From the UHGV virus genome UHGV-0040088: a DNA stretch of 39,518 nt; one strand, 5' to 3'. The DNA is from a virus. A model generated the notes under the pieces. That model saw only the letters and a program-made list of their open reading frames with translations, was not told the origin of the DNA and did no database searches. Below are positions 970 to 1,972 of this stretch, piece after piece; within the stretch, counting starts at the first letter, position 1; each line of letters begins with the position of its first letter. The translations under genes were made by a program, and so were the position numbers.

Positions 970-1461
970 ATGATTAGCCAATCGCTGAAAAACCGACTAA
1001 CTAAGGCGGCGGCTGGTGGAACGTTAGCCATTGCATCTGTTTTGCTTGTATTGGTTGAGGGTACGGCTTACGAGCCTTATTACGATACCGGAGGCGTGCT
1101 AACTGTATGCAATGGCATAACCGGCCCTGATGTTGTCCCTGGTAAGAGATACACACCGGATGAATGCGAGAGACTTTTACAAAAACACTTAGCCGTTTAC
1201 AAAAAGGCGGTCGATCGTTATGTAAAAGTTGACATGAATGACTACCAACGCGCCGCGCTAATTAGCTTTTCATACAATATCGGGGTTGACGCTTTCAAAA
1301 AATCAACCTTGTTAAAAAAAATAAACAAAGGCGACTTTAAGGGAGCGTGTAAGGAGATGGATCGCTGGGTGTATGACAATGGGAGGTATATACAAGGCTT
1401 AAAGAATCGTCGCGATATTGAACGTGCTATATGTGAATGGGGCGTAACCAATGGGAAGTGA
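970..1461 (+). CDS. SAR endolysin (lysozyme with N-terminal signal-anchor-release helix)
   Basis: N-terminal weakly hydrophobic Ala/Gly-rich helix (AAAGGTLAIASVLLVLVEG) followed by a lysozyme-like domain; position between holin and Rz. Confidence 0.85.
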   Translation: MISQSLKNRLTKAAAGGTLAIASVLLVLVEGTAYEPYYDTGGVLTVCNGITGPDVVPGKRYTPDECERLLQKHLAVYKKAVDRYVKVDMNDYQRAALISFSYNIGVDAFKKSTLLKKINKGDFKGACKEMDRWVYDNGRYIQGLKNRRDIERAICEWGVTNGK

Positions 1462-1972
1462 TGATGAACTAAAACGAAAGCTACACTACGATCCAGCGAC
1501 AGGTATTTTCACCTATAAGATTAGTCCTCACGGGAGAATCAAGGCCGGAAGCGTAGCCGGGTGTAAGCATAAAAGCGGATATATACACATAGGAAGATAT
1601 AAAGCGCATCGCCTTGCGTGGTTTTTCCATTATGGAGTGTGGCCCGAAAAGGACATTGACCATATTAATGGAATAAAAACCGACAACAGGATAGTAAACC
1701 TGCGGGAAACAGATGATGCGCATAACTGCAGAAACAAGAAACATATTGCCACTCACACATTGTCTGCATTCAGGGGTGTTAGCTACCACAAAACAGAGCG
1801 AAGCAAGCCTAAATGGCGAGTAAGAATTACAGACAATGAAGGTAAGCGTATATCTATTGGTTTATTTGACTCACTAGACGAAGCGATCGCCGCTCGCATT
1901 TTGGCGGAAAACTTTTTCTATGGTGAATATGCACCTTCGATGGGTTGCGAGGGGGAAACGTGGACAAGGTGA
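1451..1972 (+). CDS. HNH homing endonuclease (HNH plus AP2-like domain)
   Basis: Motifs HRLAWFFHYG, DHINGIKTDNRIVNL, FRGVSY..KWR; inserted between endolysin and Rz; paralogous to 17937..18461 and 36086..36592. Confidence 0.85.
   Translation: MGSDDELKRKLHYDPATGIFTYKISPHGRIKAGSVAGCKHKSGYIHIGRYKAHRLAWFFHYGVWPEKDIDHINGIKTDNRIVNLRETDDAHNCRNKKHIATHTLSAFRGVSYHKTERSKPKWRVRITDNEGKRISIGLFDSLDEAIAARILAENFFYGEYAPSMGCEGETWTR

What the first reader, a model, noticed from the sequence alone, without database searches (positions are those of the whole stretch)
1451..1972. HNH endonuclease inserted inside the lysis cassette; three paralogous HNH/AP2 genes in one genome
The lysis order holin, endolysin, Rz/Rz1 is interrupted by an HNH gene overlapping both the endolysin stop and the Rz start. 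Two further paralogs sit between tape measure and M (17937..18461) and between the phosphoesterase and helicase genes (36086..36592). All three share the HNH and AP2-like motifs, and the two minus-strand copies are AT-rich. This density suggests active intron-less homing.
Basis: partly seen in the sequence, partly recalled or inferred. Interest (0 to 1): 0.5.

Follow-up and report, generated by a model that had tools for sequence, protein, structure and literature searches.

The report
Three free-standing homing endonuclease genes
This temperate E. coli phage carries three selfish HNH homing-endonuclease genes, each wedged behind a particular gene, and the one in the lysis cassette arrived with a foreign endolysin that replaced the resident one; it is a clear but ordinary example of a very common kind of phage mobile element.

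Summary
ORFs 1451..1972(+), 17937..18461(-) and 36086..36592(-) are paralogs (37-39% aa). Each has an I-HmuI-like HNH nuclease domain and a C-terminal AP2 DNA-binding domain. No intron or intein is involved.

The window is an mEp021-like (mEpimmI) coliphage. Among its seven sequenced relatives HNH1 and HNH2 are absent and HNH3 is present in three.

- **HNH1:** it belongs to a clade (58-99% aa) that always sits just after a T4-type lysozyme gene and before a spanin, in E. coli, Salmonella, Yersinia and Morganella phages. Other HNH-AP2 clades do so in 1 of 131 loci. In this phage group it is linked to a diverged endolysin allele. The roughly 1-kb endolysin+HNH module is at least 99% identical in backgrounds whose holin and Rz differ by 4-15%. 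The last seven HNH1 codons are a remnant of the displaced endolysin.
- **HNH3:** it tracks a phosphoesterase gene across phage families and carries a co-conversion tract of about 200 nt.
- **HNH2:** it is faithful to its site but shows no tract. Arg replaces the Asp before the catalytic His.

All three are under purifying selection. This is intron-less homing, a known phenomenon, so interest is modest.

The parts
769..969 (+). Holin (HP1-type class II). This is the left homologous flank of the lysis-cassette module.
   Evidence: Pfam Phage_holin_2_3, E=1.4e-14. Its haplotypes are shuffled independently of whether the HEG is present.
970..1461 (+). B-type endolysin, with a hydrophobic N-terminal segment like a SAR signal anchor. 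It is the HEG-linked allele and is about 50% aa identical to the A-type endolysin of all sequenced relatives. The E-x8-D-x5-T catalytic spacing is intact.
   Evidence: Pfam Phage_lysozyme, E=1e-41. There is no DNA homology to the relatives from 1035 onward. The identical protein P0121 was always followed by the 173-aa HNH, in 10 of 10 distinct contigs. The SAR-like reading is from the sequence by eye only.
994..1944 (+). Tract that differs from the locally near-identical HEG-minus prophage of E. coli MIN12. It comprises a foreign endolysin body plus HNH1 and is the unit that was converted in.
   Evidence: Window against L014/L181: 98.5% identity over 1-1034, no match over 1035-1944, Rz 99.8%, downstream 99.4%.
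1451..1972 (+). HNH1, a free-standing homing endonuclease gene. The I-HmuI-like HNH domain covers about aa 1-95 and the AP2 domain about aa 105-160. Its start overlaps the endolysin stop, so it is probably translationally coupled. It has no promoter of its own.
1949..1972 (+). Remnant of the displaced A-type endolysin 3' end, fused in frame to HNH1 (EGETWTR*, against native EWGETWTR*). It also carries the Rz ribosome-binding site. The junction shows TTGCGA microhomology at 1945-1950.
   Evidence: Alignment with MagusPhagus, mEp010 and mEp013. The tail is unstructured in the model (pLDDT below 50 for aa 164-173).
1960..2430 (+). Rz i-spanin, probable start GTG 1960. The embedded Rz1 o-spanin is about 2168..2362. 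This is the right homologous flank.
   Evidence: Pfam Phage_lysis, E=1.8e-21. mEp010 and MIN12 have ATG at the position of GTG 1960, and gene callers give 156 aa. The Rz1 lipobox LSGC is visible.
17937..18461 (-). HNH2, an HNH-AP2 gene. It is a clean 525-bp insertion relative to MagusPhagus and mEp010 and is flanked by an imperfect repeat (CACAAATAAAT at 18447-18457, CACATAAAT at 17935-17943). Arg replaces the Asp before the catalytic His.
   Evidence: The IRHIN motif is conserved in P0153-P0158. dN/dS is 0.05. All homologs sit after a ParE-like gene.
18449..18703 (-). ParE-like toxin gene, the upstream neighbour of HNH2. Its last codons are regenerated at the insertion.
   Evidence: Pfam ParE_like, E=2.3e-8. 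Both allele types occur with and without HNH2.
36086..36592 (-). HNH3, a free-standing HNH-AP2 homing endonuclease gene. It is a 511-bp insertion relative to mEp554 and MIN12 and is flanked by CCTGAA repeats (36606-36611 and 36085-36090).
   Evidence: Pfam HNH_3 at 76 bits. Orthologs at 91-92% aa occupy the same site in mEp515, mEp021 and mEp010. dN/dS is 0.10-0.14.
36606..36830 (-). Co-conversion tract, the 3' end of the phosphoesterase gene next to HNH3. It is 22-42% diverged from HEG-minus alleles and nearly identical among HEG-plus alleles. It includes the codons for the conserved GH(L/W)HH motif.
   Evidence: Mismatch profile. The protein comparison shows that the tract resembles the Drexlerviridae version.
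36579..37709 (-). Phosphoesterase, annotated in relatives as 'DNA repair exonuclease'. It is the upstream neighbour of HNH3 and its presumed target gene.
   Evidence: 55% aa identity to the ACG-M12 DNA repair exonuclease. That gene is also followed directly by an HNH3 homolog in ACG-M12 and C119.
34636..36051 (-). Replicative DnaB-type helicase, the downstream neighbour of HNH3. It shows no conversion tract.
   Evidence: Annotation of relatives. Mismatch profile.

Best explanation
The three ORFs are free-standing (intron-less, intein-less) homing endonuclease genes. They belong to the HNH-AP2 family: an I-HmuI-like beta-beta-alpha-metal nuclease domain followed by an AP2 DNA-binding domain.

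**Shown: position and expression.**
- Each sits immediately 3' of one particular gene: the T4-type lysozyme, a ParE-like gene, and an Mre11/SbcD-like phosphoesterase.
- Each start codon lies inside the last codons of that gene.
- HNH1 has no promoter-like site of its own, so it is probably co-transcribed and translationally coupled with the endolysin.
- The same arrangement suggests the same for HNH2 and HNH3, whose regions were not scanned for promoters.

**Inferred: mechanism.**
- When a phage with the gene meets a relative without it, by co-infection or by infecting a lysogen, the enzyme nicks or cuts the empty allele in or near the 3' part of the upstream gene.
- Recombinational repair then copies the endonuclease gene and adjacent donor sequence into the recipient.

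**Shown: site 1.**
- The copied unit is about 1 kb. It is a diverged endolysin allele plus HNH1.
- It replaced an A-type endolysin. Seven codons of the old gene were left fused to the HNH1 C-terminus.
- The Rz ribosome-binding site and start were preserved.
- The module is at least 99% identical in phage backgrounds whose flanks differ by 4-15%.

**Shown: site 3.** The gene carries about 200 nt of foreign phosphoesterase 3' sequence.

**Inferred: self-protection.** The linked diverged sequence is presumably what makes the carrier immune to its own enzyme.

**HNH2.** It is probably an older, vertically inherited copy. Its nuclease chemistry may be altered or lost.
For: **Domains and fold.**
- Pfam HNH_3 scores 52-76 bits.
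- H71, N73, D78, N83 and L84 are invariant, and N92 is nearly so.

**Presence or absence at the same locus.**
- Site 1 is empty in MagusPhagus, mEp010, mEp013 and the 25 listed of 35 complete E. coli genomes. One of these, MLI107, has an extra non-HNH ORF after Rz instead.
- Site 2 is empty in MagusPhagus, mEp010, mEp021 and MIN12.
- Site 3 is occupied in mEp515, mEp021 and mEp010, and empty in mEp554 and MIN12.

**Site fidelity of the HNH1 clade.** Every context examined is lysozyme-HNH-spanin.
- mEp021-like phages: and locus L048.
- Salmonella.
- Yersinia, a Terminase_2 (lambdoid-like) prophage with a DUF2570 gene after the HNH.
- Morganella.
- A metagenomic contig with the order lysozyme-HNH-Rz-holin.
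- Control: other HNH-AP2 clades have such a lysozyme within 1.5 kb in 1 of 79 IMG/VR loci and 0 of 52 GTDB loci.

**Site fidelity of HNH3 and HNH2.**
- HNH3 homologs at 65-69% aa in Drexlerviridae also follow the homologous exonuclease gene, with different downstream genes.
- All HNH2 homologs follow a ParE-like gene.

**Transfer signatures.**
- Endolysin 99.8-100% and HNH1 98.6-99.8% identical, against holin 87-96% and Rz 85-91.5%, in distinct backgrounds.
- The island edges lie at 964-993 and 1960-1991.
- MIN12 flanks are 98.5-99.8% identical but carry the A-type endolysin and no HNH.
- A-type endolysin remnants are fused to the HNH C-termini at different junctions in E. coli (7 codons) and Salmonella (about 22 codons).
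- Site 3 has a tract of 11-21 mismatches per 50 nt against HEG-minus alleles, next to about 99.6% identity further 5' in MIN12.

**Selection.** dN/dS is 0.04-0.16 for all three.

**Other.**
- No introns were found.
- The general pattern is published (PMC10448857, PMC2790892).
Against: - No cleavage or inheritance data exist for any of the three. The target sites are unknown.
- No 'cognate' empty site was found for HNH1. I saw no B-type endolysin allele without the HNH. The only empty alleles are about 50% diverged in protein, so it is unproven that the enzyme recognises them.
- The identity island was found by selecting contigs with an identical endolysin protein. That biases the endolysin part. 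Ordinary mosaic recombination of a heterologous block would also give borders at the edges of homology.
- HNH2 lacks the Asp next to the catalytic His. This is a metal ligand in I-HmuI (from my own knowledge of the structure, not tested here). HNH2 shows no conversion tract and is more diverged than its flanks.
- HNH3 is no more similar between carriers than its flanks are, so its spread is not recent.
Confidence: 0.8

Rival explanations
1. The HNH genes are passive passengers. Endonuclease activity no longer drives transfer. The endolysin+HNH block and the phosphoesterase tail+HNH3 block move between phages only by ordinary homologous recombination of mosaic modules. Selection on the linked endolysin allele may contribute.
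For: - The holin and Rz haplotypes are freely shuffled among both HEG-plus and HEG-minus phages, which shows pervasive background recombination.
- Island borders coincide with the edges of A/B heterology. Any recombinant that swaps the block must cross over there.
- The contigs were selected by endolysin identity.
- HNH2 and HNH3 show no excess identity over their flanks.
Against: - Strong purifying selection acts on all three HNH ORFs (dN/dS 0.04-0.16), with catalytic residues intact in HNH1 and HNH3. A useless passenger should decay or be lost.
- The HNH1 clade stays next to lysozyme genes that are only 52-59% identical, in phages with different spanins, terminases and gene orders. Module hitch-hiking does not explain this.
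- The remnant junctions differ between E. coli and Salmonella, which implies repeated invasion events.
Confidence: 0.12
2. One or more copies, above all HNH2, are domesticated. They have been kept for a function useful to the phage rather than for homing. Possible functions are an AP2-mediated DNA-binding regulator, a nuclease used against competing phages or satellites, or a partner of the adjacent ParE-like toxin.
For: - The HNH2 clade has a conserved Arg in place of the Asp before the catalytic His, yet its dN/dS is 0.05.
- It has no conversion tract, and its divergence parallels that of its flanks.
- It is always coupled to the ParE-like gene.
- Co-option of HEG DNA-binding domains has been described (PMC10448857).
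Against: - HNH2 is absent from all seven sequenced relatives and from MIN12, so it is dispensable.
- Both ParE alleles exist with and without it.
- His, Asn and Asn are retained.
- No specific function can be assigned from sequence.
Confidence: 0.06
3. The HNH in the late region is a packaging cofactor of terminase, as in HK97-like cos phages (HNH gp74 type).
For: HNH1 lies in the late operon about 2.3 kb upstream of the small terminase gene (4259..4744).
Against: - It belongs to a different HNH family and architecture (HNH_3 plus AP2, I-HmuI-like).
- It is not adjacent to terminase.
- It is absent from all seven isolated, viable relatives and from the 25 listed of 35 matching prophages in complete E. 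coli genomes.
- The terminase is Sf6-type.
Confidence: 0.02

Closest known systems
I-HmuI / I-HmuII / I-BasI (HNH homing endonucleases of Bacillus phage SPO1-type introns; PDB 1u3e)
   Different: The SPO1-type enzymes are intron-encoded and use NUMOD/helix-turn-helix DNA-binding modules. The genes here are free-standing and use an AP2 domain. Sequence identity is only about 22%.
[quoted passage not shown]
   Same: - The domain order is the same: N-terminal HNH and C-terminal AP2.
- They are free-standing, sit next to essential or conserved phage genes, and occupy the boundaries of exchanged sequence.
- The family is very common: about 3,000 phage records match each of HNH1 and HNH3, and about 2,300 match HNH2.
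   Different: - The ICP1 examples lack a canonical Pfam HNH_3 hit. These three score well above the cut-off.
- The niches described here were not found in that paper by term search: lysozyme/spanin junction, ParE-like gene, phosphoesterase/helicase junction. 'Lysis' occurs once, in a reference title.
Phage T4 free-standing HEGs: mobE (nrdA/nrdB), segG (gene 32), segE, segF
   Same: - They carry out intron-less homing.
- The HEG sits between conserved genes and cleavage occurs in a neighbouring gene.
- Flanking markers are co-converted and markers are excluded (PMC2790892, PMC2988022).
- The endolysin replacement at site 1 and the roughly 200-nt tract at site 3 are what this mechanism leaves behind.
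   Different: - Seg proteins are GIY-YIG enzymes. MobE is an HNH enzyme but has no AP2 domain.
- T4 is virulent. This is a temperate siphophage whose HEGs also circulate as prophage alleles.
- At site 1 essentially a whole gene was replaced by an allele about 50% diverged, not a short tract.

Membership tests
HNH (beta-beta-alpha-metal) nucleases, Pfam HNH_3 / I-HmuI-like | Significant match to the family profile | tested here: met
   PF13392 scores 52, 51.8 and 76.3 bits against a cut-off of 24.8 for HNH1, HNH2 and HNH3.
HNH (beta-beta-alpha-metal) nucleases, Pfam HNH_3 / I-HmuI-like | Catalytic His (general base) plus the two Asn of the H-N-N motif | tested here: met
   H71 and N83 are invariant and N92 is at least 90% conserved in 35 sequences that include all three paralogs.
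HNH (beta-beta-alpha-metal) nucleases, Pfam HNH_3 / I-HmuI-like | Acidic metal ligand immediately before the catalytic His (Asp-His) | tested here: inconclusive
   - HNH1 (DIDHIN) and HNH3 (EIDHIN) have the Asp.
- HNH2 and its whole clade have Arg (IRHIN).
- That this residue is a metal ligand is my own knowledge of I-HmuI, not a test made here.
HNH (beta-beta-alpha-metal) nucleases, Pfam HNH_3 / I-HmuI-like | The fold of the nuclease domain | tested here: met
HNH-AP2 homing endonucleases | C-terminal AP2/ERF-type DNA-binding domain (three-stranded sheet plus helix) | tested here: met
   - Pfam AP2 is below the cut-off (21-24 bits against 33.3).
- The model has strands at 110-113, 121-127 and 133-139 and a helix at 142-160.
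Free-standing homing endonuclease genes (intron-less homing) | Not embedded in an intron or intein, with neighbouring genes intact | tested here: met
   - There are no Rfam matches in the window.
- The endolysin, ParE-like and phosphoesterase ORFs are complete.
- The insertions correspond to the ORF alone at sites 2 and 3.
Free-standing homing endonuclease genes (intron-less homing) | Sporadic presence or absence at one and the same locus among close relatives | tested here: met
   Among the seven phage isolates, HNH1 is in 0 of 7, HNH2 in 0 of 7 and HNH3 in 3 of 7. All three are present in other prophages of the group.
Free-standing homing endonuclease genes (intron-less homing) | Co-conversion of flanking sequence linked to the HEG | tested here: met
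   - Site 1: the whole endolysin allele is linked, with an identity island at 970-1960.
- Site 3: there is a tract of about 200-230 nt in the phosphoesterase 3' end.
- Site 2: no tract was found.
Free-standing homing endonuclease genes (intron-less homing) | Site-specific cleavage of the HEG-less allele and resistance of the HEG-carrying allele | not testable with these tools
   This needs purified protein and the empty-site DNA of mEp010, MIN12 or mEp554.
Free-standing homing endonuclease genes (intron-less homing) | Super-Mendelian, nuclease-dependent inheritance in mixed infection | not testable with these tools
   This needs phage crosses with catalytic mutants.

The most novel reading that the evidence does not exclude
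The HNH1 clade is a specialised 'endolysin-replacement drive'. Its enzyme targets the widespread A-type endolysin gene of enterobacterial temperate phages. These resemble phage P21 R, a resemblance I recall from memory and did not test. Repair installs the enzyme's own linked, resistant endolysin allele together with the nuclease gene. Cutting a rival's lysis gene late in a mixed infection, or in an induced polylysogen, would also act as interference competition between co-resident prophages.
Probability: 0.25. Interest if true: 0.55.

Novelty: new member of a known kind. Interest (0 to 1): 0.32.

Why it matters
It mainly matters for annotation and for the biology of this phage group.

- **Phage group.** The published description of the gut-prevalent mEpimmI (mEp021-like) coliphages does not contain the words HNH or homing in its main text (PMC11893012). 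Yet these elements account for several of the gene-content differences between members, and at site 1 for a whole-gene endolysin swap.
- **Test systems.** Two natural pairs could be used to test intron-less homing in a temperate, genetically tractable E. coli phage. They are the window phage against MIN12 or mEp010 at the lysis cassette, and against mEp554 at the phosphoesterase/helicase junction.
- **Endolysin diversity.** The recurrent lysozyme/spanin niche, colonised by at least two HNH clades, suggests that part of the allelic diversity of enterobacterial phage endolysins is driven by selfish nucleases rather than by host adaptation.
- **Limits.** None of this changes the general understanding of homing endonucleases.

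Tried and rejected
- **Donor of the module.** I looked for the donor of the 910-bp foreign segment (1035-1944) by sensitive blastn. Nothing better than short 69-78% patches turned up in 50,697 phage records, and nothing in 5,426 complete E. coli genomes. The donor remains unknown.
- **An apparent longer remnant.** In the first alignment, 'GAATATGC' near the HNH1 3' end looked like a longer remnant of the endolysin. I rejected this when the Morganella, Salmonella and Yersinia homologs showed that GE(Y/F)APSxGC is a conserved part of the HNH protein itself. Only the last 7 codons are remnant.
- **Promoters and terminators.** The scan around HNH1 found no more promoter-like sites than shuffles give, and no promoter-like site specific to HNH1.
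- **RNA genes.** Rfam and tRNA scans of the whole window were empty. This excludes an annotated intron class.
- **MIN12 as a genome-wide partner.** I tested whether the MIN12 prophage is a genome-wide isogenic partner. It is not. It is about 93% identical overall and near-identical only locally, around the lysis cassette and the 5' part of the phosphoesterase gene.
- **Identity islands at sites 2 and 3.** I looked for islands like the one at site 1. There are none. HNH3 is 92.8% identical against flanks of 91-95.5%, and HNH2 is 85% against flanks of 89-92%.
- **Terminase cofactor.** I rejected this reading; see the rival explanations.
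Full report
**1. What is there**

The window is a temperate E. coli siphophage of the mEp021 / 'mEpimmI' group. Its DNA is about 86-92% identical to MagusPhagus, mEp010, mEp013, mEp044, mEp554, mEp515 and mEp021.

- HNH1 is 1451..1972 (+).
- HNH2 is 17937..18461 (-).
- HNH3 is 36086..36592 (-). The mechanical ORF extends to 36694, but the insertion boundary and the mEp021 annotation favour the ATG at 36592.

Each scores Pfam HNH_3 well above the curated cut-off, and AP2 below it. They are 37-39% identical to each other. There is no fourth copy in the window.

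GC content is 44.3%, 37.5% and 40.6%, against 46.4% for the window.

- HP1-type holin at 769..969;
- endolysin at 970..1461, with a hydrophobic N-terminal segment that looks like a SAR signal anchor by eye (not tested);
- Rz, with Rz1 embedded in it.

**2. Protein anatomy**

An AlphaFold model of HNH1 was built from a 35-sequence alignment. Its mean pLDDT is 82.9.
- Foldseek matches the C-terminal 55 residues to AtERF1, TEM1 and ERF96 with probability 0.99-1.0.
- H71, N73, D78, N83 and L84 are invariant and N92 is nearly invariant across the alignment.
- HNH1 and HNH3 have Asp before the catalytic His. HNH2 and all its close relatives have Arg there ('IRHIN').

All three genes are under strong purifying selection, with dN/dS of 0.04-0.16.

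There are no Rfam hits in the window, and therefore no group I or group II intron. The genes are free-standing.

**3. Site 1, the lysis cassette**

*The site is empty in all sequenced relatives.*
- In MagusPhagus, mEp010 and mEp013 the endolysin overlaps Rz directly.
- No phage record holds an HNH1 ortholog. The best hit is 59%.
- In the 25 listed of 35 complete E. coli genomes that carry this cassette, 24 span about 1,290 bp. That is too short to hold the HNH.
- The 25th, MLI107, has an unrelated extra ORF after Rz.

*The window differs by more than an insertion.*
- DNA homology to the relatives stops at 1034 and resumes at 1945.
- The endolysin body is a different allele, about 50% aa identical to theirs. 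I call the relatives' allele 'A-type' and the window's 'B-type'.

*The right junction is informative.*
- After the clade-conserved C-terminus GE(Y/F)APSxGC, HNH1 reads EGETWTR*.
- This is the end of the A-type endolysin (EWGETWTR*), in the original frame and using the original stop.
- This tail is the only low-confidence part of the model.
- The junction has TTGCGA microhomology and a 3-nt deletion. The deletion removes the upstream ATG that some annotations use for Rz.
- Rz therefore starts at GTG 1960, where mEp010 and MIN12 have ATG. GAGGGGG lies upstream of it.

**4. The HNH1 clade and its niche**

Closer HNH1 relatives exist in draft E. coli genomes and metagenomes, at 73-99% aa. More distant ones, at 58-63%, occur in Salmonella, Yersinia, Morganella and an unassigned contig.

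In every context examined the gene lies directly after a PF00959 lysozyme gene and before a spanin. The surrounding phages differ:
- mEp021-likes with an Sf6-type terminase;
- a Terminase_2 prophage with RusA, where a DUF2570 gene follows the HNH;
- a Hendrixvirinae phage;
- a contig with the order lysozyme-HNH-Rz-holin.

As a control I took HNH-AP2 relatives of other clades, at 50% identity or less, and counted those with such a lysozyme within 1.5 kb.
- 1 of 79 IMG/VR loci had one.
- 0 of 52 GTDB genome loci had one.
- The single exception, L108, is a different HNH clade in the same niche.

In the Salmonella prophage, the HNH C-terminus is fused to about 22 codons, [23 protein letters not shown].
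- These resemble the end of an A-type lysozyme such as that of L108 (...[17 protein letters not shown]...).
- They resemble the Salmonella prophage's own upstream lysozyme less well.
- So an A-type endolysin has been displaced at least twice, with different right junctions.

**5. Evidence for recent spread of the module**

An endolysin protein identical to the window's occurs in at least 23 contigs. In all 10 distinct places returned, the 173-aa HNH and then Rz follow it.

One of these is the same phage: L033, a 54.5-kb gut metagenome scaffold, is 100% identical over the region.

In the other nine:

| Segment | Nucleotide identity to the window |
|---|---|
| Endolysin | 99.8-100% |
| HNH1 | 98.6-99.8% |
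| Holin | 87-96% |
| Rz | 85-91.5% |

- The low-mismatch block runs from 964-970 to about 1960-1991.
- Holin and Rz haplotypes are shuffled irrespective of HEG status.
- Locally, the window's flanks are closest to the HEG-less MIN12 prophage: holin 99.5%, Rz 99.8% and downstream 99.4% identical.
- Against MIN12, the replaced tract is 994..1944.
- Older, more diverged HEG-plus alleles also exist (L015, L019, L021, L022; HNH 70-93% nt).
- Against L019 and L021, a breakpoint inside the B-type endolysin at about 1326 separates a nearly identical 5' part from a roughly 10% diverged 3' part plus HNH.

There are two caveats.
- The contigs were chosen by endolysin identity.
- Any recombinant that swaps a heterologous block must cross over at its edges.

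The island therefore fits homing but does not prove it.

**6. Site 3**

HNH3 is a 511-bp insertion relative to mEp554 and MIN12. CCTGAA is repeated at both junctions. Orthologs at 91-92% aa occupy the same site in mEp515, mEp021 and mEp010.

Homologs at 65-69% aa in the Drexlerviridae phages ACG-M12 and C119 also lie directly after the homologous 'DNA repair exonuclease' gene. That gene is 55% aa identical to the window's phosphoesterase. Their downstream neighbours are different.

The phosphoesterase gene carries a tract next to HNH3.
- In the 200-230 nt adjacent to HNH3 there are 10-21 mismatches per 50 nt against the HEG-less alleles.
- Against the other HEG-plus alleles there are 0-3.
- Further 5', MIN12 is about 99.6% identical to the window.
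- No such tract exists on the helicase side.

At several positions the tract's protein sequence resembles the Drexlerviridae version: SxYVYxH, WRSQR and RPEM. It spans the conserved GH(L/W)HH motif.

This is the pattern expected from co-conversion. HNH3 itself is no more conserved than its flanks, so the event is old within this lineage.

**7. Site 2**

HNH2 is a clean 525-bp insertion relative to MagusPhagus and mEp010. It sits in a variable minus-strand accessory-gene slot between the tape measure gene and gene M. The last codons of the ParE-like gene are repeated at both junctions.

- All homologs, at 74-91% aa, follow a ParE-like gene in mEp021-like prophages.
- Both ParE allele types occur with and without it.
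- There is no divergence gradient.
- The gene is more diverged than its flanks.

Together with the Asp-to-Arg change, this suggests an old copy whose nuclease chemistry may be altered. Purifying selection (dN/dS 0.05) shows that the protein still does something.

**8. Mechanism**

*Shown:*
- the family and the fold;
- free-standing status;
- polymorphic occupancy of the three sites;
- fidelity of each clade to its own upstream gene;
- diverged upstream sequence linked to the HEG at sites 1 and 3;
- the endolysin remnant fused to HNH1;
- purifying selection on all three genes.

*Inferred:*
- The enzymes nick or cut the HEG-less allele in or near the 3' part of the upstream gene.
- Recombinational repair copies in the HEG and the adjacent donor sequence.
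- The diverged linked sequence protects the carrier.
- HNH1 is expressed late by translational coupling in the lysis operon. No promoter-like site specific to HNH1 was found.

This is the intron-less homing described for T4 mobE and the seg genes (PMC2790892, PMC2988022). It also matches the 'nucleases at the boundaries of genetic exchange' pattern described for HNH-AP2 and T5orf172 HEGs (PMC10448857).

**9. Novelty and score**

The family, the mechanism and the comparative signatures are all known. The family matches about 3,000 phage records, often at several places per genome. Three copies in one genome is therefore unremarkable.

What is new is local.
- These HEGs are not mentioned in the paper that describes the phage group.
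- The lysozyme/spanin junction emerges as a recurrent HEG niche, with whole-endolysin replacement.

I rate the finding as a new member of a known kind, with interest about 0.3.

Noticed in passing
L108:968-2532 (IMGVR_UViG_2568526700_000003): A different HNH-AP2 clade, 43% identical to HNH1, sits between a complete A-type lysozyme and Rz/Rz1 in another prophage. At least two HNH lineages have therefore colonised the lysozyme/spanin junction independently.
   Followed up: partly
L003:2900-3385 (mEp013), L030:4761-5246, L021:1631-2203: Relatives carry further HNH-AP2 genes at other sites of the same late region. An identical 161-aa gene follows the homolog of window ORF 2766..3317 in mEp013 and L030. 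A 190-aa gene lies right after Rz in L021. The group's pan-genome therefore has at least five HEG sites.
   Followed up: partly
L013:1525-2127 (E. coli MLI107 prophage): A 200-aa Cys-rich ORF is inserted directly after Rz, overlapping its end. By eye it has no HNH motif. Its nature is unknown.
   Followed up: no
window 17937-18461 and P0153-P0158: The whole HNH2 clade has Arg instead of Asp immediately before the catalytic His (IRHIN), yet its dN/dS is about 0.05. The active site may be altered or inactivated while the protein is retained.
   Followed up: partly
L024:2501-3082 (Salmonella enterica GCA_005599395.1): The HNH1-clade gene is fused in frame to about 22 codons of a displaced A-type lysozyme 3' end ([22 protein letters not shown]). 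A 590-bp gap follows before Rz.
   Followed up: partly
window 17772-19046, minus strand: A minus-strand accessory-gene cassette lies between the tape measure gene and gene M. It holds a 51-aa ORF (18722..18877), a ParE-like toxin gene (18449..18703) and a variable slot. The slot holds HNH2 here, small ORFs in MagusPhagus and mEp010, and a zinc-ribbon gene plus a 474-bp ORF in mEp021. Whether the 51-aa ORF is the antitoxin was not examined.
   Followed up: no
window 1945-1962: In all HEG-plus alleles a 3-nt deletion removes the ATG that some annotations (MagusPhagus, mEp013) use as the Rz start. The conserved start is therefore the GTG/ATG at 1960. The TTG at 1945 in the mechanical ORF list is probably not used.
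   Followed up: yes
L033 (ENA ERZ28614608 scaffold_1096, 54.5 kb) and L048 (IMGVR_UViG_2703718833_000007): A gut metagenome scaffold is 100% identical to the window over the 5.5 kb retrieved. It is probably the same phage. An IMG/VR prophage contig carries a 99% identical HNH1.
   Followed up: partly
L181:24934-26304 (MIN12 prophage); the approximate homolog is window 6283-7677: RefSeq names the gene in the portal-protein position of the MIN12 prophage 'anti-CBASS protein Acb1 family protein'. MagusPhagus annotates its homolog as portal protein. This is probably an annotation quirk and was not checked.
   Followed up: no
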